Part shown: piece after piece, positions 12,195 to 26,169 of the stretch
How the letters are laid out: each line of letters opens with the position of its first letter
Numbering within the stretch: position 1 is the first letter of the stretch
From: a virus
Lineage: Duplodnaviria; Caudoviricetes
IMG/VR virus record: IMGVR_UViG_3300037067_018912
Span: 293,276-357,275 of that record
DNA: 64,000 bases
Reading direction: 5' to 3' (one strand)
Program-made: the position numbers and the translations under genes
The notes under the pieces: model-generated
Databases searched by the model: none
Told to the model about the DNA's origin: nothing
Seen by the model: the letters and a program-made list of their open reading frames with translations, nothing else

Positions 12195-12220
12195 TCGAAC
12201 TTTATTTGTATTTTTACGTA
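12195..12220 (+). promoter_or_regulatory. variant ECF promoter upstream of the sigma gene (autoregulation)
   Basis: TCGAAC-N16-CGTA followed by ACATATTACG. Confidence 0.65.
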
Positions 12221-12289
12221 ACATATTACGGAAACAGTTTAAAACAAATTATTAAAGGTCTAAATTGAATAACTTTAAACGTGTGCAAA

Positions 12290-12973
12290 ATGAAAACAGC
12301 AAACAGTAAAACAGCAAAAAACAGATACAACAAATCACGTGTTATGCGTATGGCATGGGTTGTATACCGCAAAAATGGTGGTGACTTATTATGGTCAGAC
12401 AGCCTGAAACAGGCGTGGAATATGGAAAAGAACGGTTTGGCCGTTAATACCATTGAAAACCTTTATACAAGGTATTATAAAATGATTTTCAACCATATCA
12501 TTTTAAGGGTGCGCAAATATGAGATAGCACAGGAATTGACACAGGATGTCTTAATCAAAGCCAATGAACACCTTGCAAATTATGACGTTATGCGCTCCAA
12601 AGTATCAACATGGCTTTTGACTATTGCCAATAACAAAATAATTGATTTTTACCGGAGCAATGCCAATGCAAGTAATAAGGTCAATATTGGCGATTTTGTG
12701 AACGAAAAAGGTAATGAAACCCTGCCCATCATTGGCGGTTCACAGGCTAATGAAATGACTGAAAACGAAGAGTTAAAGGAAAAGATAATGTCCTGTATTG
12801 ACAAATTAAAACCTAATTACAAACAGGTTGCTATATTGCGCTTTGTCGAAGACAAGGAATACAGCGAAATAGCCGAGGCAATGTCCATAACCATTGACAA
12901 TGTGAAAGTTATGGTAAACCGTGTCCGTGCAATGTTACAAGAGCAATTGCAGGACGAATATTCCAACCTCTAA
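12290..12973 (+). CDS. ECF (group IV sigma-70) RNA polymerase sigma factor with N-terminal extension
   Basis: Region 2: AQELTQDVLIK...STWLLTIANNKIIDFYR; region 4: LKPNYKQVAILRFVEDKEYSEIAEAM...VKVMVNRVR. Confidence 0.92.
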   Translation: MKTANSKTAKNRYNKSRVMRMAWVVYRKNGGDLLWSDSLKQAWNMEKNGLAVNTIENLYTRYYKMIFNHIILRVRKYEIAQELTQDVLIKANEHLANYDVMRSKVSTWLLTIANNKIIDFYRSNANASNKVNIGDFVNEKGNETLPIIGGSQANEMTENEELKEKIMSCIDKLKPNYKQVAILRFVEDKEYSEIAEAMSITIDNVKVMVNRVRAMLQEQLQDEYSNL

Positions 12974-13377: not shown

Positions 13378-13463
13378 CACAATGTGCAAATATAACCGAG
13401 CAATAACGTAACCTTATTGTTCAATTTACGTAAAATCTTACATACAATCAATACACAAACATT

Positions 13464-13805
13464 ATGGCAATGAAAATTATAACCAAAGAGATTGAGGCAA
13501 TGTTCGCCAAACAGGGTGACACCTCAGAGAAAGAGATGAAAGAGATAAAGATCATCATGAAGTTATTCAACCCCGCAGGCGCAGGCACGTGGTATCTGTA
13601 TGAGAAACTGGACGATGATGTTTATATGTGTTTTGCAAACCTCGGCGATAGCGAAATGGCTGAAATGGGTACGGTTTCAATGTCCGAGTTAATGTCGCTG
13701 CGTCTGCCCTTTGGCCTGCACATAGAACGTGACAAAGGTTTCAAACCAATGTCCATAACCTTAGAGGAAGTTTACAACAAGATAAAGGCAGGCGGTCATA
13801 TTTAA
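13464..13805 (+). CDS. DUF2958-like protein
   Basis: KLFNPAGAGTWY.YE...EMGTVSMSEL...GLHIERD. Confidence 0.8.
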   Translation: MAMKIITKEIEAMFAKQGDTSEKEMKEIKIIMKLFNPAGAGTWYLYEKLDDDVYMCFANLGDSEMAEMGTVSMSELMSLRLPFGLHIERDKGFKPMSITLEEVYNKIKAGGHI

Positions 13806-13839
13806 CCTGTAACAAAACAACCCTTTGCACGTATCATTT

Positions 13840-13906
13840 AAAGCATAAGTTTAAACGTTTTCCAATTCAATGACTGAGAGGCCGGACAGCAATGTCCGGC
13901 TTTTTT
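13840..13906 (+). ncRNA. putative ~65-nt small RNA
   Basis: Promoter 13808-13833 followed directly by terminator GCCGGAC-AGCAAT-GTCCGGC-TTTTTT; no ORF. Confidence 0.5.
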
Positions 13907-13973
13907 ATTGTTCATAACTGTAACATTATTGTCCGGCTTACGTAAAATCTTACATAACCAATACACAAAAGCA

Positions 13974-14234
13974 ATGGTAAACATAAAACAAAGTGGTGAT
14001 GTTTATCTTCTCTTTGGCACACAGGCTGTGAAAGCATATGAAGAAAACAACATTAAAGCCGCCGTGAAAATTGTCAAAGATGATAATGGTGCGGCGTACC
14101 ATTGGAACTCAAACCATGACACACCTATGTCACTTATTAATAATATAAATGATTTGTCAGACAGGTACAAAGATAGTGATAACTGTGATGAATACACCGA
14201 AATCACTAAGGAAGAATACGAACTTTTTCAATAA
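13974..14234 (+). CDS. hypothetical protein (paralogue of C-terminus of 25124..25543)
   Basis: YLLFG.QAV.AYE...YHWNSN.D.PMSL...YTEITKEEY shared. Confidence 0.75.
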   Translation: MVNIKQSGDVYLLFGTQAVKAYEENNIKAAVKIVKDDNGAAYHWNSNHDTPMSLINNINDLSDRYKDSDNCDEYTEITKEEYELFQ

Positions 14235-14306
14235 AGAAATTGTATCATTTACGTAACATATTACGTATTTTCCCGTATAATCTTATGTAACCAACACACA
14301 GACACA

Positions 14307-14423
14307 ATGGAAACGATACAGATTGAACGCAGCGAAAAGAATGCACGATGGATGCAGGTAGCATTTATAATTGGCACAGCCTTTTCAGTGGCTTTTTGGG
14401 TGGTCTTATTCATAATCCTTTAA
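14307..14423 (+). CDS. 38-aa single-TM protein (below ORF-track cutoff)
   Basis: ATG after promoter/leader repeat; METIQIERSEKNARWMQVAFIIGTAFSVAFWVVLFIIL. Confidence 0.6.
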   Translation: METIQIERSEKNARWMQVAFIIGTAFSVAFWVVLFIIL

Positions 14424-14433
14424 TCTTACGGTC

Positions 14434-14817
14434 ATGAAAAAATCACTCGCAATGTTATTAAAGGGTTTTGAGTCTTCATCGACTCTTACCCCCGAATTTG
14501 CACAGTTTTACAGGACGTTCAAAAAAGAATTTACCTGTGAATTGCAGAGTATTGGCGCAACCAATATAGAATTTCATCGTGGCCATTTCTACGTGTCCGG
14601 TTTTTTCACTGTTGACGGACAGGCATATTATTTCAGTCTTTCTGATGTGAGGGGCATGGATTACAGCATTAAAAATCATCCTGACAGTTGTATGAGCAAA
14701 TTACTGTACCGCACAGCCAGGGACTACAAAGACTACACAGGCGGTAAGAACAGGTACGCAACCATTAGATTTGATATGGCCGCAGATATGTGCTGGTATT
14801 TCAAAGTGGTTGACTAA
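14434..14817 (+). CDS. hypothetical protein
   Basis: GHFYVSGF...YRTA.DYKDYTGG.N. Confidence 0.75.
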   Translation: MKKSLAMLLKGFESSSTLTPEFAQFYRTFKKEFTCELQSIGATNIEFHRGHFYVSGFFTVDGQAYYFSLSDVRGMDYSIKNHPDSCMSKLLYRTARDYKDYTGGKNRYATIRFDMAADMCWYFKVVD

Positions 14818-14898
14818 GACCACAACAAAATAACCCTTTAACCCTGTAACACACAGGGTTTTTTCACGTATTATCTTACACAATCAATACACAAGACA

Positions 14899-15135
14899 AT
14901 GAGAATAATAAGCGTAATTGAAATCAAAGAGGGTGTTGTTTACGACATCACATCTTTTGGAATCGACGAGGCTAATGTACAGCCGACTGTTGACAAGGCT
15001 GAGAAGTTATTTGAGGAGAAATGCCGTGAATACGGATACGACGAGGACGACCATACGGCCATTGAAGAGTTTATTGAAGACGGATATTTCGGAGGCGGCA
15101 ACTTTTCAATCTGCCTTACTTGGTCAGAAATCTAA
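14899..15135 (+). CDS. acidic hypothetical protein
   Basis: ATG after promoter repeat. Confidence 0.7.
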   Translation: MRIISVIEIKEGVVYDITSFGIDEANVQPTVDKAEKLFEEKCREYGYDEDDHTAIEEFIEDGYFGGGNFSICLTWSEI

Positions 15136-15160
15136 TGTACAACTTTTAATACACCTCATC

Positions 15161-15406
15161 ATGGACACAAATTTCCAATTGAAGTTAGCCAAAGAGGCCG
15201 GGAAGATTACCCTGAAAAGCGCAACCTACGACACATGGGAAGAAGAGTATAAATATCACGTGGGTATGGTTCAGAATCCCTTTCCTTTCGGAGTGTTCAA
15301 ATTAAAACTTGAATCGTTGGACAGAATGTTCAACGCCGACCCGGACGGGAAGAACCCGGCATATGACAAGCCGATACAGAAACTTTGCAACGAATTAGGT
15401 TATTAA
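15161..15406 (+). CDS. hypothetical protein
   Basis: Start reassigned to MDTNFQ. Confidence 0.6.
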   Translation: MDTNFQLKLAKEAGKITLKSATYDTWEEEYKYHVGMVQNPFPFGVFKLKLESLDRMFNADPDGKNPAYDKPIQKLCNELGY

Positions 15407-15425
15407 CCCCTTAAAACATACTATC

Positions 15426-15602
15426 ATGTTACAGATTGTTCATATTAACGGATTTGTTTGGTATGCTGACATAAACAGTCAGGTGTTATACGAAGACAGT
15501 GAGAAGAAGAGCGGCACGCCGTTCTCATTCATGGCACGCAACGAACGGGAGCAAATGGAAAATGAACTCAGATTCCCCCGGCGCAAAGAAGAACAGGACT
15601 AA
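15426..15602 (+). CDS. 58-aa hypothetical protein
   Basis: Fills gap in operon. Confidence 0.5.
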   Translation: MLQIVHINGFVWYADINSQVLYEDSEKKSGTPFSFMARNEREQMENELRFPRRKEEQD

Positions 15603-15623
15603 GGTTTTAATTTAACGACCATA

Positions 15624-16100
15624 ATGTTCAAAGCCAAACAACAAGGATTTAAGACGCTGCAAGAGGTTCAAGCCTACTTGCAGCAACTTCCATTTGTGAA
15701 CTTTGGTGGGTGTGGCATTGCTGCTCTTGCAATGTACAGGTGGCTAAAAAAGAACCGTAAAGCAAGTAGAAAGATTTGTTTTTACATGTTGGCTGATCAA
15801 GGTTTTATCCATGAGAACAACGCCAAGTGTTTGGAGGGTGAGGAAGACAGACAACCAACAGCACCCGGACATATGGTGCTGTATGACAAGGGCAAATATT
15901 TTGATTGTGGTGGTACATATGACCCAACAAGATATAACTATCATTTAAAGGTAACAAAGGAACAATTTATCGTTGAATCTCTCAATAATGTACCGACATG
16001 GCGAGAGGATTTCCCCCGCAAATATCTTATTGGCAGAATAGCACAGAAACTTAATATTGACCTCTCCGACGTAGTTGAAGAATGTGATTGTGAATTGTAA
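15624..16100 (+). CDS. stand-alone Cys-His-Asp (papain/transglutaminase-like) domain protein
   Basis: GGCGIAA...HMVL...YFDCGG, same pattern as domain in 7012..10872. Confidence 0.65.
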   Translation: MFKAKQQGFKTLQEVQAYLQQLPFVNFGGCGIAALAMYRWLKKNRKASRKICFYMLADQGFIHENNAKCLEGEEDRQPTAPGHMVLYDKGKYFDCGGTYDPTRYNYHLKVTKEQFIVESLNNVPTWREDFPRKYLIGRIAQKLNIDLSDVVEECDCEL

Positions 16101-16150
16101 CCTTTCGAATGATTTTACGTAATATCTTACATAATCAACAACACAAGACG

Positions 16151-16381
16151 ATGATAAGCAAAGCAAAATTTGTACAGGTGGTTACCATCAAAGACCCGGA
16201 CACCAAAGGACAGGTTGAGTTATCCATCTACAAACACGAGAACGGCGGAATGTTCGCAATGGATTCTTCCTATATGGAACAACTTGATGGTATCGGCGAT
16301 GAAGATGATATCACTTGCAGGATTCCCGACCCGTTCGGAGATAACGAACATATGACATTGGTCGAACTTCACGAAGATTAA
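16151..16381 (+). CDS. hypothetical protein
   Basis: ATG after promoter repeat; terminator 16420-16443. Confidence 0.7.
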   Translation: MISKAKFVQVVTIKDPDTKGQVELSIYKHENGGMFAMDSSYMEQLDGIGDEDDITCRIPDPFGDNEHMTLVELHED

Positions 16382-16496
16382 ATGATTGTTGGTGTATTGT
16401 TTTAATGTATTGGTAAATTCCCCGGCATCGTCCGGGGTTTTTTATTGTACATATCGAGTATTTATGGTATATTTGCAGATTATCTGACACCCAAAA

Positions 16497-16979
16497 ATGA
16501 AATACACCAAGTACCTCCTTAAAGGAGATTATATCAACATTGAACAATTCGAAAACAAGGAACACCCTTTGTACAACTTTCCACTTGTAGCGATTTCAAT
16601 ACCTCTTACCGTGGCATTGCTTGGGGGAATTATCGTCATGCTCCCGGTTACAATAACGTTTGATAACGGACGGTGGTTGTGGTATAAATGGTTGCTGTAT
16701 GACCGGAAGTATAACCTCTCATATAATGTTCAAAAGACTGTAACAAACATGGAGGCATACCGTATCATTGATCATGGATTCAATAAATTAACACACGGTA
16801 TCAATGAGCAAACCAATATTTTATCAGGCAGTTTTGCAACCCTTGACGGACGAGGAATTAAAAAAGGAATTGAGAGGTTGCACCTTATCCGAACGAATGG
16901 AAACAGAAGAAGCGAAATGCCCAATCTGTGGCCGAAACGAATGGTGGCTATTGCCAAAAGTATCAGTCTCAGTGCGTGA
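16497..16979 (+). CDS. putative membrane protein
   Basis: TM segment; host-type TATATTTG box upstream; overlaps next ORF. Confidence 0.55.
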   Translation: MKYTKYLLKGDYINIEQFENKEHPLYNFPLVAISIPLTVALLGGIIVMLPVTITFDNGRWLWYKWLLYDRKYNLSYNVQKTVTNMEAYRIIDHGFNKLTHGINEQTNILSGSFATLDGRGIKKGIERLHLIRTNGNRRSEMPNLWPKRMVAIAKSISLSA

Positions 16980-17034
16980 GGGTGGCAAGCCTTACATAGA
17001 GTGCCTGCATTGCGGACACACCACACACCTGTAA
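16804..17034 (+). CDS. Zn-ribbon protein
   Basis: CPIC...CLHC. Confidence 0.6.
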   Translation: MSKPIFYQAVLQPLTDEELKKELRGCTLSERMETEEAKCPICGRNEWWLLPKVSVSVREGGKPYIECLHCGHTTHL

Positions 17035-17136
17035 AATCCTGGCTCTAAGGCCATTTTATTTAAAATCTTTTCGCCCTGTGATTGTAACATCACGGGGTTT
17101 TTTACGTAATATCTTACATAATCAACACACAATACA

Positions 17137-17325
17137 ATGGAAAAGAAATTCGTAATTTATTGGGATGAAACCTACATGACTTCCAAATCAAGAGTGGTTG
17201 AATTGAGTTTTTTCAGCGCACTTAAAGGTTTTGATATCGAAGATCAGAACGCTGTTGAACGTCTTGACATTGGCGAAACCACACCAATGGATAACAATCA
17301 CATTTGGATAATGAGAGTAAAATAA
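17137..17325 (+). CDS. hypothetical protein
   Basis: ATG after promoter repeat. Confidence 0.7.
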   Translation: MEKKFVIYWDETYMTSKSRVVELSFFSALKGFDIEDQNAVERLDIGETTPMDNNHIWIMRVK

Positions 17326-17341
17326 CCAATACACACAAGCA

Positions 17342-17728
17342 ATGAAAGCAACAAAATGGATTTGTGAGAACTGCAACAGCGATAATGTTGAGTTCAAAGC
17401 ATGGGTAAAACCCAATGAGAATAACAAATTTGTCGATTATTCCGGTGAGGAAAGTGACGACAATTATTGTCAGGATTGCCAAAAGCACGTTGAAACACAC
17501 CAAGTCGAAATCAAAACCGGGGCAAAAATTATAGGCTTTCAGGTTGTTGGTGAGGGTGATTTGGAGGGTGAAATTCATCCCGATATGGATGCAAGTTTTT
17601 GTGTTTACAATCTCTCACAGGCACGTAAAATGATTGAACTGAATGAAAACTATTGGCGACTCCTGACTATATGGAGTGGTGATATTGAAGAACCAACCAT
17701 GATGTTCAGAGGTAACCCAAGAAAGTAA
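17342..17728 (+). CDS. Zn-ribbon protein
   Basis: CENC...CQDC. Confidence 0.7.
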   Translation: MKATKWICENCNSDNVEFKAWVKPNENNKFVDYSGEESDDNYCQDCQKHVETHQVEIKTGAKIIGFQVVGEGDLEGEIHPDMDASFCVYNLSQARKMIELNENYWRLLTIWSGDIEEPTMMFRGNPRK

Positions 17729-17815
17729 ATGGTTTTATTTAAAACCTTAAAGACCCCGCCTGTAACAAGCGGGGTTTTTTTACGTATTATCTTACGTAAC
17801 CAATACACAAACACA

Positions 17816-18301
17816 ATGACTAAAAAGAGTTTCAAGGAAATGGCATCCTATCATCCTTACAGAGGACATGGAACTAAAGGTTTTAACGCCTTGTTCTTTG
17901 ATTGGAAGTCAGAGGACGTGAACGGCAAATATATCGTAGGCTTCAAGTATTGCCTATGGGCACGCACCGAGAACGCCACGAAGAAAGAACTCGAAGATAC
18001 CCTGTACGATTACATTACAGGCAAAATTGATGATACCAAAATTCCGTGGTATATGCAATTGGTTGAAGCATCCATCGACCAACAGAGGTTCAAAGTGCCT
18101 TTGGGTGGAAACGGCCTTAACAGCATGGTTAATCATTATATAAGTGTGATAATCCTTATGGTTAAAGGTCAGGCAAAGGGTATTGTAACCTCTCTCCCTG
18201 TTGTAAAGCAATGGTGGGATGATGCTCGTTACGTGAAAGTGCCTATTGTAGATTATTACAATGAAAAGGTGATAATAAGTACCATTCAAAACTATATGTG
18301 A
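17816..18301 (+). CDS. hypothetical protein
   Basis: Start reassigned after promoter repeat. Confidence 0.7.
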   Translation: MTKKSFKEMASYHPYRGHGTKGFNALFFDWKSEDVNGKYIVGFKYCLWARTENATKKELEDTLYDYITGKIDDTKIPWYMQLVEASIDQQRFKVPLGGNGLNSMVNHYISVIILMVKGQAKGIVTSLPVVKQWWDDARYVKVPIVDYYNEKVIISTIQNYM

Positions 18302-18302
18302 T

Positions 18303-18548
18303 ATGTACGACAGCCTATTCAGCGACGAAGATATTCGCAAAGTGTTGCAGGAACGAAACATATCAATTCCTGGCAGCAAGGCCGATTTGGCTTCCAAAGA
18401 GATTGGCGACAGGGTTTTCTTCCTATACGGCGAGGACAAGGATTATTATATTGTTATTGACAAAGAACCGGATTCCATGCTCGTATTGGTGAACCCAAAG
18501 AATAATTATCAATGCAAAACACATTCGACATTGGTCAAAGTATTGTAA
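18303..18548 (+). CDS. hypothetical protein
   Basis: Stop codon lies in the next TGTAAC. Confidence 0.6.
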   Translation: MYDSLFSDEDIRKVLQERNISIPGSKADLASKEIGDRVFFLYGEDKDYYIVIDKEPDSMLVLVNPKNNYQCKTHSTLVKVL

Positions 18549-18599
18549 CATTGCGGAATTTTTTACGTAACATCTTACATAATCAATACATACAATACA

Positions 18600-19046
18600 A
18601 TGGGAGGCTTTACACAAATCAGATTACGGCACACTTCAGAAGAAGTGATAGCAAGGGAAAATGAGGAACTGAAAAATTGCGGCGTTGCTCGTAGGTATCG
18701 TTTCTATTCCAATGCCGATATAAGAGCCGAATACGAATATTATCTTAAAGGCGACGGTAATTATCCGCCTCACCTCTTCCCCCCTCACAAAATCAATACT
18801 TTCGAGGATTTTAGAAAATATTGGTCGCCGGAGGCACTTGGAGAGGTCTTTGTTCCCAAAAATGGAACTCTTAACCTCGACTGTTATTTTGGCCGCACAA
18901 GCAAACGGGCAATGCACAATATAGCACGCTACCTGCTTTGTAATTCATCCAAAATTAAATCCGTCAACGGCTCATTCTCCACCTTTGTTGAGCGTTGCGG
19001 GTACGGGAAGAAGAACCAAGCCATATTAATGGAATTGGACAAATAA
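18600..19046 (+). CDS. hypothetical protein
   Basis: ATG after promoter repeat; terminator 19053-19077. Confidence 0.75.
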   Translation: MGGFTQIRLRHTSEEVIARENEELKNCGVARRYRFYSNADIRAEYEYYLKGDGNYPPHLFPPHKINTFEDFRKYWSPEALGEVFVPKNGTLNLDCYFGRTSKRAMHNIARYLLCNSSKIKSVNGSFSTFVERCGYGKKNQAILMELDK

Positions 19047-19131
19047 CATTAAGACCCGCATTATTGCGGGTTTTTTTGTAACCTTTCACCGCAATATACG
19101 TAATATCTTACATAATCAACATACAAACACA

Positions 19132-19398
19132 ATGGCAAAGAAATTACGAGTATCACCAACAGAACGATTAATCCTGACCGAAGCGGATGCAATCTCTTTA
19201 GAGAAAGTATTGCAGTATCTTTGGGAGGATGAACAGGAAAATCACAATTCTATGGTTGAAGAGGGTGGAATGTCTGAACCTGTTAATGGTGAACCCACCG
19301 ACGAAGAACACATTTTCTACCACCTGTACAAATTGAATCAAAAATTGCAGGAGTACAAGAACAGGAAAATTGACAAAATTTGCGACCGAAAATGGTAA
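19132..19398 (+). CDS. hypothetical protein
   Basis: ATG after promoter repeat. Confidence 0.7.
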   Translation: MAKKLRVSPTERLILTEADAISLEKVLQYLWEDEQENHNSMVEEGGMSEPVNGEPTDEEHIFYHLYKLNQKLQEYKNRKIDKICDRKW

Positions 19399-19712
19399 CC
19401 ACAGACAGAGCAAACGAAAGTTATAACATAGCCGTAAAGTATCTACGAGAGAAATACGGCTATAGAAGAAGCGGTCTTGTTGAGAGTGCCAGGAAACGGC
19501 TCGACAAAGCAAAGAACAAAAAGGAGCGCAAAGAGATTGATGACGAATTAACGGATGATGATTATATTCTGATTCACAACCCTATTCCTGACGATGACAG
19601 GGACGGCAAAGAAATAGAACTATTGTTAAGCCAATATCATTACGGTTATACTGTCCGGTTTGAATTGTACAACAAACTGTGTGAACTTGGAGTGATAAAG
19701 TACGAAGAGTAA
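19392..19712 (+). CDS. hypothetical protein
   Basis: Operon packing. Confidence 0.6.
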   Translation: MVTTDRANESYNIAVKYLREKYGYRRSGLVESARKRLDKAKNKKERKEIDDELTDDDYILIHNPIPDDDRDGKEIELLLSQYHYGYTVRFELYNKLCELGVIKYEE

Positions 19713-19948
19713 TGTCCATTTTAAATAAAATCATTATGAACGACACAAAAGATGTATTCATCAAAGATGAAGGCGACTTTGTAACCCTCGGTTTTCAAAC
19801 TGAAAAGGGAAAAATCGCTGCCCGTGAACTATTCCCCGCCAATTGGATATACGGTGAGAATGTCCTGAAAGTAGATGTTAGTATCAAAGACCAAAAAGCA
19901 TTTACCAAAGTACTTGAAATTAAAGAACTCACATGGGAAGAGTGCTAA
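19712..19948 (+). CDS. hypothetical protein
   Basis: TAATG overlap. Confidence 0.6.
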   Translation: MSILNKIIMNDTKDVFIKDEGDFVTLGFQTEKGKIAARELFPANWIYGENVLKVDVSIKDQKAFTKVLEIKELTWEEC

Positions 19949-20052
19949 AAGGATTGTCCATATCCTGGCAGTAATGTACAGAAAGAACCGGAGTGTTGTA
20001 ACATTCCGGTTTTTTTTACGTAATATCTTACATAACCAATACACACAATACT

Positions 20053-20259
20053 ATGTTGAAAGTTAAAGCACTTATAGTAGTAATGAGCCACCTGTCAGAT
20101 GCACAGGAGAAGTTCAGAATGTTTGGCAAGTTGGATGCACACGATATGTATAACGACATCAATTTTGCCAAGTATGTCATTCATAAGACCAATGGTAACC
20201 TGAACCAAGAAATTGATGCGGACAAGTTGTTCGACGAGTACGAAAAATCAATAAAATAA
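20053..20259 (+). CDS. hypothetical protein
   Basis: ATG after promoter repeat. Confidence 0.7.
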   Translation: MLKVKALIVVMSHLSDAQEKFRMFGKLDAHDMYNDINFAKYVIHKTNGNLNQEIDADKLFDEYEKSIK

Positions 20260-20266
20260 GGTTAAC

Positions 20267-20587
20267 ATGAAACAAATACAATTAACAGAGGAACAGTTTG
20301 ACGAGCAATATCATCCTGTCAAAAACCATCTCGACAACAACGCATCGTTTGACGGCTGTATGTTTGAAACCTATGGAGCAGAACTCCAACATATTGTTGG
20401 TTGTCTGAAAGGCACAAAGAGGCAGGTTTGGACGATTATTGAAAGTGACCGCAACGATAACATTTATTATCTCTCCGGTCTGCATATCGTAAACCGTTTG
20501 GGTTTCCTTGTCACGTTAGAACGTGTACCGGAAGACACCGAAGTTGAAGTTTTCATTGACATTGAATCTCACAAATTACCTGAATAA
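20267..20587 (+). CDS. hypothetical phage protein
   Basis: FETYG.E...VWTI...G.H.VNR.G pattern. Confidence 0.75.
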   Translation: MKQIQLTEEQFDEQYHPVKNHLDNNASFDGCMFETYGAELQHIVGCLKGTKRQVWTIIESDRNDNIYYLSGLHIVNRLGFLVTLERVPEDTEVEVFIDIESHKLPE

Positions 20588-20602
20588 CCAATTTTAAATA
20601 AA

Positions 20603-20791
20603 ATGGATAATACAATACATTTCAAACCGTTTAGTGATAATGGAAATGTCAGGTGTTTAAATGGAAATATTCATCGGACGTGTACAACTGATATAAGGAG
20701 AGTAACTTGTCTGAAATGTTTAAATCCAAATACCAACAAAGATTTTTGGTTTAAGCACGAACAAAAACGTGGTAATGCACATAAAAATTAA
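20603..20791 (+). CDS. small Cys/His-rich protein
   Basis: H...C...VTCLKC. Confidence 0.55.
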   Translation: MDNTIHFKPFSDNGNVRCLNGNIHRTCTTDIRRVTCLKCLNPNTNKDFWFKHEQKRGNAHKN

Positions 20792-20795
20792 AGCA

Positions 20796-21050
20796 ATGGC
20801 AAATCATATAACACAGTGGAAACCGCAGGTCACGATAAACGGCCAAACAACTGTATTCGATAACTATGCGGAAGTTAAGAGAAACATGAAACTCCTGCTT
20901 GACCGTAGTATAAGTGAAAGCAAAGGATTAAGATATAACGCTGAAGTTACGGTAAGCCGTTCAAGACGTGGCGAATGGGGTGAATGGTTCGAGTATTGGG
21001 GTTATAATGCCGAGCGTAAACCGTTAATTAAAAAACAAGGTTGGCAATAA
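20796..21050 (+). CDS. hypothetical protein
   Basis: RSRRGEWGEWFE.W. Confidence 0.65.
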   Translation: MANHITQWKPQVTINGQTTVFDNYAEVKRNMKLLLDRSISESKGLRYNAEVTVSRSRRGEWGEWFEYWGYNAERKPLIKKQGWQ

Positions 21051-21121
21051 AAAATCCTTATCCCGCTGTAACAAGCGGGATTTTTTTACGTAACATCTTA
21101 CGTAACCAATACACAACAACA

Positions 21122-21400
21122 ATGAAAAAAGGAACATTTATAAGCATTTGGGATAACGGTTCTTTCCGTACTCCTGCAATTCTGAACGAAGCCACGGGTG
21201 AAGTAACAACCACATCGGTTGATGTTTCCGATGATATTGGAACTTTAATGGAAGAATCGTTTGAAGACGAAGAGGGTGACGAATACGACATCTGCCCTGA
21301 GTGCCACGAATACATTCTCAAAACTGTGATGAAAGAGGGTGTTGGCAAGCACCTGTACGAAGCACAGGTTTGCAGTAACCCTGAGTGTGATAATCAGTAA
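21122..21400 (+). CDS. acidic Zn-ribbon protein
   Basis: CPEC...CSNPEC; ATG after promoter repeat. Confidence 0.7.
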   Translation: MKKGTFISIWDNGSFRTPAILNEATGEVTTTSVDVSDDIGTLMEESFEDEEGDEYDICPECHEYILKTVMKEGVGKHLYEAQVCSNPECDNQ

Positions 21401-21411
21401 ATCATAAAGCC

Positions 21412-21957
21412 ATGTATAGAAATTTCAGCAAAGACACTTTGGAAATCTCCCTCCGGAGATTGACAACCGAGGACAATAAAATTGTGTTGCACATTGAATC
21501 GGACTATTCCAATAGTCCCCGCAAAGCGCAACTGCACGTGAATGAAAAGAACATAGCCGAGACTGTTGAAAAAACGTGGAAATCCATTAAGACCAAAAAA
21601 ATGTTAAGTCTTAACACTTGGTTTGGTGAGATTGATTGGTATGACAACATGACTGACATTTACGAGACCCCGATGGTTAACATCAAAAGGGGACTAAAGC
21701 GTGCTAAAATTGCCCACAAGGAACACGGCTCAATACCCAAGGATTGGTCATTCAACGTGGGAATCGTGTTCAGTGACACAACAACAAACACTCCGGTGTT
21801 AGAGGTCTTAAACAAAGTGTTATACAGCCTCTTCACCAAAGAGATTGAAAAGGAATTTGTAAAGGCAATAAAGCCATTCCTCCGGAAAGAAAAGAGCAAC
21901 GTAAGTTATTCCTTTCCCGTGGAAGACAAACCGTACACCCCGCCAAGATTTTGGTAA
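21412..21957 (+). CDS. hypothetical protein
   Basis: Operon packing; terminator 22007-22036. Confidence 0.7.
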   Translation: MYRNFSKDTLEISLRRLTTEDNKIVLHIESDYSNSPRKAQLHVNEKNIAETVEKTWKSIKTKKMLSLNTWFGEIDWYDNMTDIYETPMVNIKRGLKRAKIAHKEHGSIPKDWSFNVGIVFSDTTTNTPVLEVLNKVLYSLFTKEIEKEFVKAIKPFLRKEKSNVSYSFPVEDKPYTPPRFW

Positions 21958-22070
21958 GAGGACACTGAAAGATATTATTGTGTATATTGTGTTGATTGAT
22001 TATGTAAGCCAGGGACGCCATTCCCTGGCTTTTTTTGTAACATTCCAGATCATTTTACGTAAAATCTTAC

Positions 22071-22143
22071 ATAGGGCGGGTGAAACTGCGGTGCAGTAAT
22101 CCGACCCTACCCGCAAGTGTAAGTTTAGAATCATTCCAAATAA
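22071..22143 (+). ncRNA. duplicated structured element, copy 1
   Basis: Near-identical to 27992-28064; begins at the expected +1 of promoter 22036. Confidence 0.6.
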
Positions 22144-22235
22144 TCCACACATCAGTATTTATTCATGCATGGGTTGTAACAATCCGGAGTATTTTACGTA
22201 ATATCTTACATAAACATAATCAAAACAAACACAAT

Positions 22236-23036
22236 ATGAAATTTAAAAATCCCGCAACAGCAAAGAGAGAAGCAGGTGTTTCTTACCTCGGCAACATCAA
22301 TTCATCGGCAAAGATGATTAAGAACAAAAAGGTAAGTAACAATTACACCTATATCATTTATCTTTCTCCTGCCAAGACGAGTGGTTTCAACGTTTGCACT
22401 CATTCAACACCTGAATGCCGTATGGGTTGTCTCGCAAACAGCGGTAGGGCAAAAGTGGAAGAATACGCCCACAGAAACGTTATTAAGCACGCAAGGGTTG
22501 TAAAAACCCGCTTGTTCTTTGAGGACAAAGATTATTTTATGGCTTGGATGGCTGCAGAAATGAAATCTTATCAACAGAAAGCCAAGAAAGACGGTTATGC
22601 ATTTTCCGCACGCCTGAACGGCACATCGGACATTGATTGGGCAGACAAGAGCGAATTTGGTACAACCATATTTGAAATGTTTCCCGAAGTGCAGTTTTAC
22701 GATTATACTAAGAACCCGCACAAATTCATTAACAAACCTGAAAACTATCATTTAACCTTTTCCTACACAGGCCGTAATTGGGACACCTGCAAAGGCTTAC
22801 TGGACGCAGGTTTCAACGTGGCTGTCATATTCGACACCACCAAGAAAGAACAACTTCCGGCCACGTTCAAAGGTTATGAGGTTATCAATGGCGACCTTAC
22901 AGACTACAGGCCATATGACGGTAAGGGTGTGATTGTCGGCCTCCGCTACAAGGATTGCGCTGATAAGAACATCAACAAGGAACTCTTAAACGGTTGCTTC
23001 GTGGTTAAGACTGCCAAAGAATTGGTTGAAGCCTAA
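22236..23036 (+). CDS. gp88-like (radical-SAM-related) phage protein
   Basis: Cx6CxxxC, RLNGTSDI.W, QFYDYTK, NYHLTFS, GD..D.R motifs. Confidence 0.75.
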   Translation: MKFKNPATAKREAGVSYLGNINSSAKMIKNKKVSNNYTYIIYLSPAKTSGFNVCTHSTPECRMGCLANSGRAKVEEYAHRNVIKHARVVKTRLFFEDKDYFMAWMAAEMKSYQQKAKKDGYAFSARLNGTSDIDWADKSEFGTTIFEMFPEVQFYDYTKNPHKFINKPENYHLTFSYTGRNWDTCKGLLDAGFNVAVIFDTTKKEQLPATFKGYEVINGDLTDYRPYDGKGVIVGLRYKDCADKNINKELLNGCFVVKTAKELVEA

Positions 23037-23131
23037 AGAATTGTCATAAAGAATGACCATAAACCCTGCAAGTTTTGTAACTTTGCAGGGTTTTTTACGT
23101 AATATCTTACATAAACACAATACACAACACA

Positions 23132-23998
23132 ATGAATGTTTTATCCCTTTTCGACGGAATGTCTTGCGGACAGTTGGCTCTCAGAAAGACCAATATAAAG
23201 TACGATAACTATTTCGCAAGTGAGATTGAGAAAGACTCTATAACGGTCGCAACAGCCAATTTTCCCGGCACAATCCAACTCGGAGACGTGACCAAAATCA
23301 CCGCCTCAATGTTGCCACAAATCGACCTTTTAATCGGTGGTTCACCTTGTCAGGGTTTCTCCAATAGCGGAGACGGCCTGAATTTCAGCGACCCCCGCAG
23401 CAAACTGTTTTTTGAATTTGTGAGGTTGTTAAAGGAATTGAAGCCGAAGTATTTCCTGCTCGAAAATGTTGTTATGAAAAAGGAATGGGCAGCAGTCATA
23501 ACCAAATACTTAGGTGTTGATTACATTAAAATCAATTCATCCCTCTTTGTTCCACAGAACAGGCCGAGATTATATTGGACTAACATACCTCTCAATATTG
23601 CCCTCCACATGGAAATGGACGGCATAGAGCCACACGGCAAGACCTTGAAAGATATTCTTCTGCCTGATGGTGATGAGAGGCTGAAACCTTTTATGTTGTC
23701 AGAAAAGGCAAAGGGTTATATGAGCCGTGACAGGCAACCCGGCAAACCGAGGTGGGAATATCACACTAACCCATTGTCCGGTAACGCCGCCTGTCTGACC
23801 GCCAATATGTACAAGGGTGTGCCTTACGGTGTTATTAAAGAGAAAATGCGTAGGTTACATCCTATTGAATGTGAACGTCTGCAGGGTGTTCCTGACGATT
23901 ACACTTCTATGGTGTCAAACACATCAAGGTACAAGATGTTGGGTAATGGTTGGACTGTTGATACAATTGCTTACATAATGTCCTTTATGGAACTTTAA
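23132..23998 (+). CDS. orphan DNA (cytosine-5) methyltransferase
   Basis: SLFDG, GGSPCQGFS, ENV, QNRPR, ERLQG, LGNGW. Confidence 0.92.
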   Translation: MNVLSLFDGMSCGQLALRKTNIKYDNYFASEIEKDSITVATANFPGTIQLGDVTKITASMLPQIDLLIGGSPCQGFSNSGDGLNFSDPRSKLFFEFVRLLKELKPKYFLLENVVMKKEWAAVITKYLGVDYIKINSSLFVPQNRPRLYWTNIPLNIALHMEMDGIEPHGKTLKDILLPDGDERLKPFMLSEKAKGYMSRDRQPGKPRWEYHTNPLSGNAACLTANMYKGVPYGVIKEKMRRLHPIECERLQGVPDDYTSMVSNTSRYKMLGNGWTVDTIAYIMSFMEL

Positions 23999-24009
23999 CC
24001 AATGTACAA

Positions 24010-24249
24010 ATGAAAACGAAAGTCTTATATTTTTGCAGTAATACTCAAAAGAATTACTATCACATTTGGACTGTGTTAAAAGAAAAGTTTGACAATCTGA
24101 CAGCCATAACTGTAGATGAAGTTGAAGAGTATTTGAACAGCATCAATGCAAAGTTTTACATCAAAGAACATCCATACCAATTGGAACTTTATAACCCTGA
24201 GAACGAATATGTTTTCTGTATTAATAAGCCAACAGAATGTCCATTGTAA
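24010..24249 (+). CDS. hypothetical protein
   Basis: Stop codon within next TGTAAC. Confidence 0.6.
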   Translation: MKTKVLYFCSNTQKNYYHIWTVLKEKFDNLTAITVDEVEEYLNSINAKFYIKEHPYQLELYNPENEYVFCINKPTECPL

Positions 24250-24300
24250 CATTTCAAGGTTTTATACGTAACATCTTACATAACCAATGTACAAACACAA

Positions 24301-24846
24301 ATGAATAAGCCAAAATTAGAACTAAAGAAAATCAAGACTTTCCGTGGTATGGAGGGTTATGGTCTGAACGCCGACCTGTATATCAACGGTGTGAAATGTT
24401 ATTTTGTTCTCGACGAGGGTAATGGTGGTGAGATTGATTTCCAACCTGAACTCTATCAGAACCCCAAGGCCGAGCAAGTTAAAGCCAACATAAAACTGTT
24501 GGACGAATACATCGCCACCCTGCCGGAACAGGAACTCTTCACCGATGATAAAGGTAAGAAGCACACATACAAACCCGATTTGTCATTTATCCTTGACGAA
24601 CTGATTAACGAGCAGGAAAAGGCCAAAGTCGCCAAGAAGATGGAGAAACTGTTCGAGACTGCTATTTGTTTCGGTGTGCCGAATAGTGGCAGGTACAGAT
24701 ATATTACTTGGAAAAACAAAAAACCGCTTTCCGCAATGCCGAAGATTATTATCCAAGGCGAAGTGAACCGGATAAAGGCGAAAGAATGCAAAGACGGCGT
24801 TGTCATTCTCAACACCAACCTGCAATCACTTGGTATTATACTGTAA
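24301..24846 (+). CDS. hypothetical phage protein
   Basis: ADLYING...DEGNGG; ATG after promoter repeat. Confidence 0.75.
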   Translation: MNKPKLELKKIKTFRGMEGYGLNADLYINGVKCYFVLDEGNGGEIDFQPELYQNPKAEQVKANIKLLDEYIATLPEQELFTDDKGKKHTYKPDLSFILDELINEQEKAKVAKKMEKLFETAICFGVPNSGRYRYITWKNKKPLSAMPKIIIQGEVNRIKAKECKDGVVILNTNLQSLGIIL

Positions 24847-24859
24847 AATAAACAGACAA

Positions 24860-25033
24860 ATGGACACGAATAAAAAGTTTATTATTGTAGATAATCTTGA
24901 TGATCATCAGGGTTATAATGGTGAAGAAGTTATTGTAGTAACAGAACATGGCGAAAACTATTTCACCGTTCAATCAACCAAAAGTAATTTGCAATGGATG
25001 TGTGGTGAGGAAGAATTACAAGAAATTAAATAA
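24860..25033 (+). CDS. small hypothetical protein
   Basis: Start reassigned to MDTNKK. Confidence 0.55.
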   Translation: MDTNKKFIIVDNLDDHQGYNGEEVIVVTEHGENYFTVQSTKSNLQWMCGEEELQEIK

Positions 25034-25123
25034 AGCCACACGTAAGATATCAGAGAGGGGGTTTGTTTTGTAACATTCCCCCTTTTTTTACGTAATATCT
25101 TACACAATCAATATACAAACACA

Positions 25124-25543
25124 ATGGGAAGAATAAAACAAATGAAAGCGGATATCGAAGTTATGCTCTTTGATATCTATCATCACATCGGTATTGATAA
25201 GCCGACCAATCATGAAGAGATTGTCGATTTCGTCTTCAATGATGTTGCAGAAGCAGCAGGAATTGAATCAGGCGATTTTCATTCCGGTGATGTGGCTATA
25301 GGTTTCCGCAGATGGATGGAATCGAAACCCACAGAACAGAACATTTACCTCCTCTTCGGCGAACAGGCCGTCAGAGCATATGAAGATGGTGGAGTTGAAG
25401 CCGCTGTGGAAAGCGTTAAGAATGGTGAGGGTTCGGTGTACCATTGGAATTCAAACCGTGACAATCCTATGTCACTTCTTGGTGAGGCTGACGGTTGGGA
25501 AGATTATACCGAGATTACCAAAGAAGAATATGATCAATTTTAA
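25124..25543 (+). CDS. two-module hypothetical protein
   Basis: C-terminal module paralogous to 13974..14234. Confidence 0.75.
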   Translation: MGRIKQMKADIEVMLFDIYHHIGIDKPTNHEEIVDFVFNDVAEAAGIESGDFHSGDVAIGFRRWMESKPTEQNIYLLFGEQAVRAYEDGGVEAAVESVKNGEGSVYHWNSNRDNPMSLLGEADGWEDYTEITKEEYDQF

Positions 25544-25617
25544 AGAAACCACGCCGGGGGTGTAACAAACCCCCGGTTATTACGTAATATCTTACACAAC
25601 AATAAAGCATAACCACA

Positions 25618-26133
25618 ATGAAAGATAATATTTGGTCAGAAATCAGAAGCAACTTTGAAGACGAAGGCGTTATTCATATTGATGCTTGGATCAGCGGAGA
25701 CGACAACGAAGAAGGTAAAGTTATTGCCACCATCGACAAGGCAACAAGTGTTGTTTCTTACCGGGATGACCGGGCGAAAACTGATGCATATGCACAGGAA
25801 ATAATAGCAGAAGTCTTGGCTGACCTCACCAAAAGTACTATTCCTGATGAGGATGCAAACTTCACACAGTTCATGGTGGAAATGAATGGCAAATTGAAAC
25901 CCCCTACACCGAAGAACGCCACCGATAAAATAGAAGATTTGACATACGATATTGACGTCCGTGGTGACTACGCCCTGTTCATTGAAAAGAAACATTTCAT
26001 CGAAGAATGGAAACTCGACAATGAGGCGAGAGAAGCCGCAGGTGGTATAACGTTCTTCCGGGTGATCCGGGACGGCGTGCAGCAATCCGGCCACGGATGG
26101 ATTGAGAACGGCGAGATTGTTCAATGGGGTTAA
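25618..26133 (+). CDS. hypothetical protein
   Basis: ATG after promoter repeat. Confidence 0.7.
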   Translation: MKDNIWSEIRSNFEDEGVIHIDAWISGDDNEEGKVIATIDKATSVVSYRDDRAKTDAYAQEIIAEVLADLTKSTIPDEDANFTQFMVEMNGKLKPPTPKNATDKIEDLTYDIDVRGDYALFIEKKHFIEEWKLDNEAREAAGGITFFRVIRDGVQQSGHGWIENGEIVQWG

Positions 26134-26169
26134 TAATCACAATGAAGAGACTTTAAATAAATCAATAAT

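What the first reader, a model, noticed from the sequence alone, without database searches (positions are those of the whole stretch)
14840..25600. Terminator-promoter fusion cassettes: the -35 box sits in the preceding terminator hairpin
Seen: in eight copies (14845, 17083, 17761, 19997, 21067, 23076, 25069, 25561) TGTAAC lies in or at the loop of a GC-rich hairpin whose 3' arm plus T-tract forms the 16-nt spacer, e.g. CCTGTGAT-TGTAAC-ATCACGGG-GTTTTTTA-CGTA. Stem sequences differ between copies while pairing is kept. In three others the TAA of TGTAAC is the upstream stop codon (16100, 18548, 24249). One ~70-bp unit thus ends a transcript, starts the next and supplies a CA-rich leader. Established analogy: PeSL promoter/stem-loop elements that shuffle modules in T4-type phages. 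Inference: an integrase-free, integron-like array where recombination between units swaps self-contained 1-4-gene cassettes; cruciform extrusion could also gate the promoters.
Basis: partly seen in the sequence, partly recalled or inferred. Interest (0 to 1): 0.8.

Follow-up and report, generated by a model that had tools for sequence, protein, structure and literature searches.

The report
Fused terminator-promoter units in giant phage
In a 357-kb uncultured phage, a row of small accessory genes is punctuated by about 18 copies of one compact signal that stops one transcript and starts the next. It has the same design as the "PeSL" cassettes of T4-type phages, but is built on a promoter type read by ECF sigma factors, one of which the phage encodes next to the array.

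Summary
All eight named copies have a stable hairpin (dG -10.7 to -21.3 kcal/mol) with TGTAAC in the loop or 5' arm. Seven are followed by a T6-T8 run that fills the 16-nt spacer up to CGTA. The three stop-codon-in-TGTAAC cases are also real.

The unit is TTGTAAC-N16-CGTAAnATCTTACA plus a ~25-nt CA-rich leader. It is an ECF-sigma-type promoter. An ECF-type sigma gene (window 12290-12973) lies directly upstream of the array, and a 327-kb relative has the same sigma-then-array layout, with eight of its 36 units also carrying embedded terminators.

Gene gain and loss between this phage and metagenomic relatives (75-85% nucleotide identity) always touches a unit or a leader-like junction. Three events carry direct-repeat signatures of recombination within the units. 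Against the distant relative, only 14 of 42 ORFs are shared, and their order is scrambled.

The PeSL analogy holds. PeSL stem-loops overlapping the -35 box were already described in 2010. I found no support for the "integron-like" label or for cruciform gating.

This scan has already reported the same design on other phage DNA (e1-5644390, e1-5346448).

Verdict: a real feature, and a new variant of a known kind.

The parts
12290..12973 (+). ECF-type sigma factor gene (227 aa), directly upstream of the promoter array
   Evidence: Pfam Sigma70_r2 and Sigma70_r4_2. NCBIfam TIGR02937 sigma70-ECF, 93 bits. Best solved-structure relative is B. subtilis SigW, 5wuq. The ortholog (51-52% identity) sits in the same position in relative G001.
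14840..14898 (+). Unit with embedded terminator: hairpin 14840-14860 (CCCTGT/ACAGGG), -35 TGTAAC at 14845, T6, -10 CGTAT at 14867, leader, ATG at 14899
   Evidence: dG -10.7. Ortholog in L029 keeps the stem.
17073..17136 (+). Unit with embedded terminator: hairpin 17073-17098, TGTAAC at 17083 is the loop, T6, CGTAA at 17105, ATG at 17137
   Evidence: dG -15.2. The L022 ortholog has G.U changed to A-U, which keeps the pair.
17749..17815 (+). Unit with embedded terminator: CCCCGC/GCGGGG around TGTAAC at 17761, T7, CGTAT at 17783, ATG at 17816
   Evidence: dG -17.1.
19980..20052 (+). Unit with embedded terminator: CCGGAGTGT/ACATTCCGG around TGTAAC at 19997, T8, CGTAA at 20019, ATG at 20053
   Evidence: dG -21.3.
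21048..21121 (+). Unit with embedded terminator: TCCCGCT/AGCGGGA around TGTAAC at 21067, T7, CGTAA at 21089, ATG at 21122
   Evidence: dG -14.7.
23061..23131 (+). Unit with embedded terminator: CCCTGCAA/TTGCAGGG around TGTAAC at 23076, T6, CGTAA at 23098, ATG at 23132 (C5 DNA methylase)
   Evidence: dG -17.9.
25052..25123 (+). Unit with embedded terminator: GGGGG/CCCCC around TGTAAC at 25069, T7, CGTAA at 25091, ATG at 25124
   Evidence: dG -19.7. The L013 ortholog has a longer stem.
25553..25617 (+). Unit with embedded hairpin but no T-run in this phage: CCGGGGGT/ACCCCCGG around TGTAAC at 25561, CGTAA at 25583, ATG at 25618
   Evidence: dG -19.2. The ortholog in L027 has T6.
19054..19131 (+). 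Unit with a separate terminator just upstream. Its T-run runs into TTGTAAC at 19077. CGTAA at 19099, ATG at 19132.
   Evidence: dG -15.1.
22006..22074 (+). Unit with an upstream terminator (22006-22031) whose T-run runs into TTGTAAC at 22036. CGTAA at 22058. It drives a ~70-nt structured RNA instead of an ORF.
   Evidence: This unit is duplicated around an extra cassette in relative L038.
16096..16150 (+). Unit without a terminator: the TAA of TGTAAC (16098-16100) is the stop codon of ORF 15624-16100. CGTAA at 16118, ATG at 16151.
18544..18599 (+). Unit without a terminator: the TAA of TGTAAC (18546-18548) is the stop codon of ORF 18303-18548. CGTAA at 18566, ATG at 18600.
24245..24300 (+). 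Unit without a terminator: the TAA of TGTAAC (24247-24249) is the stop codon of ORF 24010-24249. CGTAA at 24267, ATG at 24301.
   Evidence: The 79-aa gene is absent in relative L013.
13407..14306 (+). First three units of the array (-10 at 13429, 13941 and 14274). Two of them (13429, 14274) have CGTAAC as the -35. The cassette of unit 13941 plus the 86-aa gene is absent in relative L029.
22175..22235 (+). Unit with a weak embedded hairpin (dG -8.0) behind the small RNA. CGTAA at 22197, ATG at 22236 (GP88-family protein).
27305..31949 (+). Further promoters of the same -35/-10 class. Of these, only 28184 keeps part of the array core (ATCTTACA), without the CA-rich leader. -10 at 27327, 27979, 28184, 30571 and 31945.

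Best explanation
The region (window ~13.4-28.2 kb) is a hyperplastic accessory-gene region of a jumbo phage. Its host is probably in Bacteroidota, inferred from the leaders without a Shine-Dalgarno sequence and from TAnnTTTG-like boxes.

Its short operons (1-4 small genes, or a small RNA) are each headed by one composite unit with three parts:
1. An ECF-type promoter, TTGTAAC-N16-(TTTA)CGTAA. It is most likely read by host core RNA polymerase carrying the phage's own ECF-type sigma factor, encoded directly upstream (inferred).
2. A ~25-nt G-poor CA-rich leader for Shine-Dalgarno-independent translation (inferred).
3. In about half the units, an intrinsic terminator for the preceding operon.

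The promoter fixes only the -35 hexamer, the spacer length and a T-rich stretch next to the -10. The terminator can therefore be laid over it. TGTAAC sits in the loop or 5' arm, the freely variable flanks form the stem, and the U-tract doubles as the -10-proximal spacer. The hairpin acts in the RNA of the upstream transcript, and the promoter acts in duplex DNA, so the two do not conflict.

Where the upstream ORF runs into the -35 box (stop codon = TAA of TGTAAC) there is no terminator, and read-through is expected.

A side effect, and possibly a selected one, is that the repeated 40-70-bp units and leader-like junctions give homology every 0.3-1.3 kb. Genes are gained, lost and shuffled at these points, as at PeSLs in T4-type phages.
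For: Shown by sequence:
- Motif copy number and strict N16 spacing: 45 sites with N16 against 4 each with N15 and N17.
- Conservation profile with invariant GTAAC, TTTACGTAA and ATCTTAC, and 32-35 nt from the -10 to the ATG.
- Eight strong hairpins, seven with T6-T8.
- Enrichment over other GTAAC sites, p = 4e-6. The T-run is longer when a hairpin is present, p = 0.001.
- Stems differ between copies, with pair-preserving and compensatory changes. Examples: CCCCGC/GCGGGG versus TCCCGC/GCGGGA in this phage; CCCGAAG/CTTCGGG versus CCCAAAG/CTTTGGG in G001.
- Orthologous hairpins are kept in relatives.

Sigma factor:
- ECF family by Pfam and NCBIfam, with SigW as the best PDB hit.
- B. subtilis SigW promoters have a tgAAAC -35 and a CGTA -10 (PMC5758882).
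- Flavobacterial ECF-class promoters have a CGT -10 box (PMC9723704).
- The sigma-then-array synteny is conserved in G001: 36 same-strand units, 8 with embedded terminators.

Gene turnover:
- Seven indels against contigs at 75-85% nucleotide identity.
- L038 carries an extra cassette flanked by two near-identical copies of one terminator plus -35.
- The indels of the 62-aa and 78-aa genes are flanked by the leader and a leader-like junction (TAACCAATACACACAAGCAATG).
- Only 14 of 42 ORFs are shared with G001. Their order is scrambled while the flanks are collinear.
- Twenty of the 153 unit pairs share exact runs of >=20 nt, up to 28 nt.
Against: - There are no transcript data. Start sites, 3' ends and the sigma-promoter pairing are all inferred.
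- The phage has three ECF-type sigma genes, and Bacteroidota hosts have many, so which sigma reads the units is open.
- One of the eight hairpins (25561) lacks a T-run.
- Conservation of ATCTTACATAA beyond the -10 is not explained by an ECF promoter alone. It may be an operator, since TTACGTAA is a palindrome.
- The breakpoint evidence is weak statistically. Indels must fall between genes, and the units fill most of the intergenic space. Nine of 14 boundaries lie at unit junctions against ~46% expected. Two indels (the 79-aa and 57-aa genes) show no clear flanking repeats.
Confidence: 0.7

Rival explanations
1. The units are only promoters and terminators. Gene turnover happens by illegitimate recombination anywhere and survives only between genes. 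Because every cassette brings or finds a promoter, the units make turnover tolerable rather than causing it.
For: All seven indels are intergenic, as selection alone would give. Unit junctions are ~46% of junctions and hold 9 of 14 boundaries, which is not significant. Indels D and E have no clear flanking repeats. The median longest exact run between units is only 11 nt.
Against: The L038 extra cassette is flanked by two copies of the same, otherwise unique, terminator hairpin plus -35. The indels of the 62-aa and 78-aa genes are flanked by the leader and a leader-like repeat in register. PeSLs give an experimentally supported precedent (PMC2839356 abstract).
Confidence: 0.3
2. The promoters are read by a host ECF sigma factor or by one of the other two phage sigma factors, not by the adjacent one.
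For: There are three phage ECF-type sigma genes. Flavobacterial hosts have an ECF promoter class with a CGT -10 box. The same -35/-10 class is spread over the whole genome, including the tRNA arrays.
Against: The sigma-then-array adjacency is conserved in a relative at 51-52% sigma identity. The adjacent sigma gene has no such promoter of its own, which fits a gene expressed earlier that then turns the array on.
Confidence: 0.25
3. The hairpins are not terminators. Instead they are 3'-end stabilisers or RNase processing sites of a long read-through transcript.
For: One strong hairpin (25561) lacks a T-run. Three units have no terminator at all, so read-through occurs anyway.
Against: Seven of the eight hairpins have T6-T8 directly after a GC-rich stem, the classic intrinsic-terminator form. 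The T-run lengthens specifically when a hairpin is present.
Confidence: 0.1
4. The inverted repeats act in DNA, either as cruciforms or as operator palindromes that gate the promoters.
For: The -35 lies at the centre of the inverted repeat. TTGTAACAA is itself partly palindromic.
Against: Stem sequences differ between units, so no common protein site exists. The stems are short, with loops of 4-16 nt, which are poor cruciform formers. About half the units have the same promoter with no repeat.
Confidence: 0.04

Closest known systems
PeSLs (promoter-early stem-loops) of T4-type phages RB49/phi1, T4/PST and KVP40/nt-1 (Arbiol et al. 2010, PMC2839356; Comeau et al. 2014, PMC4122927)
   Same: - Small composite promoter-terminator motifs repeated tens of times.
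- Concentrated in hyperplastic regions in front of small ORFan genes.
- The stem-loop lies between or over the -35/-10 boxes.
- Upstream stop codon and downstream start codon lie inside the motif.
- Indels and replacements between close relatives fall at the motifs.
   Different: - The promoter here is ECF-type (TGTAAC-N16-CGTA) and probably depends on a phage-encoded sigma factor. PeSLs use a host sigma-70 early promoter.
- The leader has no Shine-Dalgarno sequence.
- The host phylum and phage lineage are unrelated.
- Promoter and terminator activity and mini-circles were shown experimentally for PeSLs. Nothing has been tested here.
ECF (group 4) sigma-factor promoters, e.g. B. subtilis SigW (-35 tgAAAC, -10 CGTA; PMC5758882). 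The N16 spacing of SigW and SigX TGTAAC-N17-CGAC are from my own knowledge.
   Same: An AAC-ending -35, a CGT(A) -10, a rigid 16-nt spacer and a T-rich spacer segment. The cognate sigma has regions 2 and 4 only.
   Different: The T-tract here is next to the -10, not next to the -35. An extra conserved block (ATCTTACATAA) covers the start-site region. The sigma factor is phage-encoded and has no anti-sigma gene evident next to it (not examined in detail).
Phage-encoded sigma factors with private promoter sets (e.g. phiEco32 gp36, B. subtilis SPO1 gp28 and gp33/34; from my own knowledge and earlier scan note e1-2029573)
   Same: The phage brings a sigma factor that redirects host core polymerase to a repeated phage-specific promoter.
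   Different: Those systems are not described as fused with terminators, or as borders of shuffled cassettes.
Integron cassette arrays
   Same: A row of small, mostly unknown genes with a repeated element at each junction and high turnover.
   Different: There is no integrase, no attC-like imperfect palindrome with conserved R/L boxes, and no single Pc promoter. Here every cassette has its own promoter, and the repeat is a transcription signal.

Membership tests
PeSL (promoter-early stem-loop) cassettes | Strong host sigma-70-type early promoter (TTGACA-N17-TATAAT with AT-rich upstream region) | tested here: not met
   The boxes are TGTAAC-N16-CGTAA. The sigma-70 consensus scan was not enriched: 62 found against 52.5 expected.
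PeSL (promoter-early stem-loop) cassettes | Stable stem-loop within or next to the promoter, acting as terminator or attenuator of upstream transcription | tested here: met
   The structure is present in 8 units embedded and 3 directly upstream. Terminator form, stem plus T6-T8. Function was not tested.
PeSL (promoter-early stem-loop) cassettes | Concentrated in hyperplastic regions upstream of small ORFan genes | tested here: met
   18 of 19 strict copies lie in 15 kb of a 357-kb genome. Most of the ORFs scanned have no Pfam match. Only 14 of 42 ORFs are shared with relative G001, while the flanks are collinear.
PeSL (promoter-early stem-loop) cassettes | Indels and replacements between close relatives have junctions in the motifs | tested here: inconclusive
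   All 7 indels touch a unit or a leader-like junction, and 3 carry direct-repeat signatures. The null expectation is high, however, and the relatives are only 1-2-kb contigs.
PeSL (promoter-early stem-loop) cassettes | Excised mini-circles formed by recombination between neighbouring motifs | not testable with these tools
   This needs PCR or long reads from phage DNA.
ECF sigma-dependent promoter | A -35 ending in AAC and a -10 containing CGT, at a fixed 16-17-nt spacing | tested here: met
   GTAAC-N16-CGTA occurs 45 times, against 4 each for N15 and N17. Literature consensus.
ECF sigma-dependent promoter | A cognate ECF sigma factor (regions 2 and 4 only) is present | tested here: met
   Window 12290-12973: Sigma70_r2 plus r4_2, TIGR02937 at 93 bits. 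Two further paralogs exist in the genome.
ECF sigma-dependent promoter | Transcription starts depend on that sigma factor | not testable with these tools
   This needs in vitro transcription or transcript mapping.
Integron | Tyrosine-recombinase integrase with attI, and attC sites at cassette ends | tested here: not met
   The junction repeat is a promoter-terminator, not an attC-like element. None of the array-region ORFs scanned by Pfam was an integrase. The whole genome was not searched for integrases.

The most novel reading that the evidence does not exclude
The fused units are more than compact punctuation. They may act as the recombination substrates of a cassette-exchange system in Bacteroidota jumbo phages, in which cassettes are excised as circles and re-inserted at any unit, as proposed for PeSL mini-circles. 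In addition, termination inside the next promoter may hand core polymerase directly to the phage sigma factor for re-initiation, coupling the expression of neighbouring cassettes.
Probability: 0.15. Interest if true: 0.65.

Novelty: new variant of a known kind. Interest (0 to 1): 0.4.

Why it matters
It shows that the PeSL solution has arisen again in an unrelated giant-phage lineage. In that solution one short element ends a transcript, starts the next, and marks the borders at which accessory genes come and go. Here it is built on a different promoter class and a phage-supplied sigma factor.

That supports the idea that self-contained transcription units are a general way for large phages to keep a fast-changing pool of accessory genes expressible.

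The array also gives a ready-made, internally replicated set of natural ECF promoter and terminator variants. These could be used to test how much sequence freedom an ECF promoter spacer tolerates.

Tried and rejected
- Megablast of 20 kb of the array against GenBank phages found no match.
- An exact-motif scan of IMG/VR found no match.
- A search for close relatives of the sigma protein in IMG/VR found none.
- A scan of IMG/VR with the G001-type unit returned only G001 itself plus unrelated single hits.
- Thirty of the 36 metagenome hits to the 19-mer were an unrelated repeat or chance matches.
- ARAGORN found no tRNA or tmRNA in 12-35 kb.
- Rfam gave nothing above gathering score in 11-36 kb.
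- My first enrichment test, which scored any enclosing hairpin with dG <= -9, was not significant (p = 0.19). Coding-region chance hairpins passed it. Only the terminator-like criterion with a T-run separates promoters from controls.
- A single consensus structure for the count of structure pairs was not attempted, because the stems are not in register relative to TGTAAC.
- I considered and rejected a sequence-specific operator palindrome, because the stems differ between units.
- I also rejected a sigma-70 or Bacteroidota sigma-A promoter, because the boxes do not fit.

Full report
**What the window is.** The window is the last 64 kb of a 357,275-bp IMG/VR virus record with direct terminal repeats and 40% GC. 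It has no close match among GenBank phages.

**The repeat.**
- The core TACGTAATATCTTACA (<=2 mismatches) occurs 18 times on the + strand between window 13427 and 28182, and once elsewhere in the genome.
- Aligned on the -10, the units read tTGTAAC-N16-(ttTTTA)CGTAAtATCTTACAtAAyCAAtACAcAA...ATG. GTAAC, TTTACGTAA and ATCTTAC are almost invariant. The distance from the C of CGTA to the ATG is 32-35 nt in 14 of the 18 units.
- Genome-wide, the minimal pattern GTAAC-N16-CGTA occurs 45 times, against 4 each for N15 and N17. The array is therefore a subclass, with a shared leader, of a general promoter class of this phage. That class also heads the tRNA arrays and accessory genes such as RtcB.

**The hairpins.**
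- The stems are 5-10 bp and GC-rich, with dG from -10.7 to -21.3 kcal/mol. TGTAAC lies in the loop or 5' arm. The 3' arm plus a T6-T8 run fills the 16-nt spacer.
- The exception is 25561, which has GGTTATTA instead of a T-run. Its ortholog in a relative has T6.
- Two further units (19099, 22058) have a separate terminator whose T-run runs into TTGTAAC. One more (13941) has a terminator ~15 nt upstream.
- Three units (13429, 22197, 28184) have weaker embedded pairings.
- Three units (16118, 18566, 24267) use the TAA of TGTAAC as the stop codon of the upstream ORF and have no terminator.
- Under a terminator-like criterion, 7 of 45 promoter sites qualify against 4 of 508 other GTAAC sites (p = 4e-6). 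A laxer criterion without the T-run was not significant.
- T-runs are longer in hairpin units (p = 0.001). A TTTA stretch next to the -10 is conserved in all units, so the terminator's U-tract re-uses a promoter element.
- Stem sequences are unrelated between units. Pair-preserving changes are seen between paralogs and orthologs: C-G to U-A at the outer pair of 17761 versus 21067, and G.U to A-U in the L022 ortholog of 17083.

**Which promoter type.**
- TGTAAC-N16-CGTA is the ECF sigma layout. For B. subtilis, SigW promoters have a tgAAAC -35 and a CGTA -10 (PMC5758882).
- A flavobacterial ECF promoter class with a CGT -10 box has been mapped (PMC9723704). I could not verify its -35 box from the text.
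- The phage encodes three sigma-70 region 2 plus region 4_2 proteins.
- One of them, window 12290-12973, is an ECF-family sigma (TIGR02937, 93 bits; best solved relative SigW). It ends 434 nt before the -35 of the first unit.
- It has no such promoter of its own.
- That this sigma reads the array is an inference from adjacency and from conserved synteny, described below.

**Relatives.**
- One metagenome scan with the 19-mer found six short contigs with true copies of the unit: L013, L022, L027, L029 and L038 from one sample, and L039 from another. They are 75-85% identical to the window in nucleotide sequence. The other 30 hits were an unrelated repeat or chance matches.
- The embedded terminators are kept at orthologous positions.
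- A GP88-family protein of the array led to a 327-kb IMG/VR phage, G001, at 70% protein identity.
- In G001 the sigma ortholog (51-52% identity) lies 1.6 kb upstream of 36 same-strand GTAAC-N16-CGTA units and none on the other strand. Eight of these have embedded terminators. Paralogous hairpins show compensatory double changes, CCCGAAG/CTTCGGG versus CCCAAAG/CTTTGGG.
- The design is therefore a conserved trait of a phage lineage, not an accident of one genome.

**Gene turnover.** Against the close contigs I found seven indels:
- A: unit 13941 plus its 86-aa gene is absent in L029.
- B: the 78-aa gene 14899-15135 is absent in L029.
- C: the 62-aa gene 17137-17325 is absent in L022.
- D: the 79-aa gene 24010-24249 is absent in L013.
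- E: the 57-aa gene 24860-25033 is absent in L013.
- F: L038 has an extra cassette, made of a unit, a paralog of the 62-aa gene 20603-20791 and a terminator. It is flanked by two near-identical copies of the terminator plus -35 that is single here at 22006-22041.
- G: L039 has an extra ~66-aa gene behind unit 16118 and a different upstream gene.

How these indels bear on recombination:
- B and C are flanked by the unit's leader on one side and a leader-like intercistronic junction on the other (for example TAACCAATACACACAAGCAATG).
- F has the signature expected of a crossover within a unit.
- D and E show no clear repeats.
- Against G001, only 14 of 42 array-region ORFs have a homolog in the corresponding 44 kb, and their order is scrambled. 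In window coordinates the order is 26482, 21128, 19712, 16163, 18600, 16728, 17810, 22236, 24313, 24860, 26949, 28234, 18318. The upstream flank and the sigma gene are collinear.
- Twenty of the 153 unit pairs share exact runs of at least 20 nt, up to 28 nt.
- This fits unit-mediated homologous recombination, but the test is weak. Indels must fall between genes, units make up about half of all junctions, and 9 of 14 boundaries at unit junctions is not significant.

**Comparison with what is known.**
- PeSLs of T4-type phages are composite promoter-terminator motifs in hyperplastic regions. [quoted passage not shown] They have experimentally shown promoter and terminator activity, and recombination between them produces indels and mini-circles (PMC2839356; PMC4122927).
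- The present units work like PeSLs in every respect I could check.
- They fail the defining promoter feature. They are ECF-type and probably depend on a phage sigma factor, rather than being host sigma-70 early promoters.
- Integrons are a poor comparison, because there is no integrase or attC and each cassette has its own promoter.
- Cruciform gating is not supported. About half the units lack any repeat, and the stems are short with large loops.

**Earlier notes of this scan.** The same design was reported on other phage DNA (e1-5644390, e1-5346448), as were ECF promoter arrays in related jumbo phages (e1-3458879, e1-5368905), found. I reached the PeSL and ECF readings before reading these notes. 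The Guerin et al. paper was a lead from e1-5368905, and I checked it.

**Verdict.**
- The mechanism is compact terminator-over-promoter punctuation of an ECF-sigma-driven accessory-gene array, with likely but unproven recombination at the units.
- It is a new variant of a known kind and of moderate interest.

Noticed in passing
window 22071-22143 and 27992-28064; L038:912-985; G001 (L043 ~2850, ~5190, ~9750): A ~70-nt structured RNA-like element (core ...GGGCGGGTGAAACTGCGGTGCAGTAATCC...CCCGC) starts at +1 of two units in place of the leader and ORF. It shows a compensatory change (GCGGG/CCCGC versus GTGGG/CCCAC). It is conserved in the close relative and present in three promoter-driven copies in the 327-kb relative. 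It has no Rfam match.
   Followed up: partly
window 21970-22005: The 3' UTR of the 181-aa gene, just before the terminator at 22006, carries the unit leader in inverted orientation. Its reverse complement reads CTTACATAATCAATCAACACAATATACACAAT. It has no promoter or ORF of its own. It is kept in L038. It is either a recombination scar or an RNA segment antisense to all the cassette leaders.
   Followed up: partly
window 27327-27640: Promoter 27327 heads ~300 nt without an ORF. This stretch contains a tRNA-like T-arm and acceptor 3' end (GGGTTCGAATCCC...CCTCCA) and gives a weak Rfam tmRNA 3'-part match (19.5 bits, below gathering score). ARAGORN finds nothing. It is followed by a terminator near 27620.
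   Followed up: partly
window 17040-17065, 17735-17750, 19725-19740, 20590-20602, 27230-27250, 27640-27652; G001 units: An AT-rich near-palindrome, TTTTATTTAAAA / TTTTAAATAAAA, recurs just upstream of hairpin-type units and at some intercistronic junctions. In G001 it forms the spacer of most hairpin-less units (TTGTAACCATTTTTATTTAAAATCGTATAAT). Its function is unknown.
   Followed up: no
window 13974-14234 and 25124-25543: Two paralogous genes (51% identity over 76 aa) sit in different cassettes, each directly behind a unit. This is an internal example of cassette duplication.
   Followed up: partly
window 13427-28200 (each unit); also 12214-12233, 14249-14268, 35170-35190: The -10 region is the 8-bp palindrome TTACGTAA, followed 4 nt later by TTACATAA. 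Similar tandem copies occur without a -35 box at a few other sites. This could be an operator for a regulator that switches the class off, which would explain conservation beyond the ECF -10.
   Followed up: no
window 16440-16496 and 28125-28145: TAnnTTTG boxes (TATATTTG), of the Bacteroidota primary-sigma -7 type, lie upstream of ORF 16497-16979 and just before unit 28184. This suggests that some genes inside the array are also read by the host primary sigma factor.
   Followed up: no
window 47779-48642 (-) and 23132-23998 (+): The phage carries a Cfr10I/Bse634I-family restriction endonuclease gene and, inside the array, a C5 cytosine methylase gene. The methylase is absent from the corresponding place in G001.
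   Followed up: no
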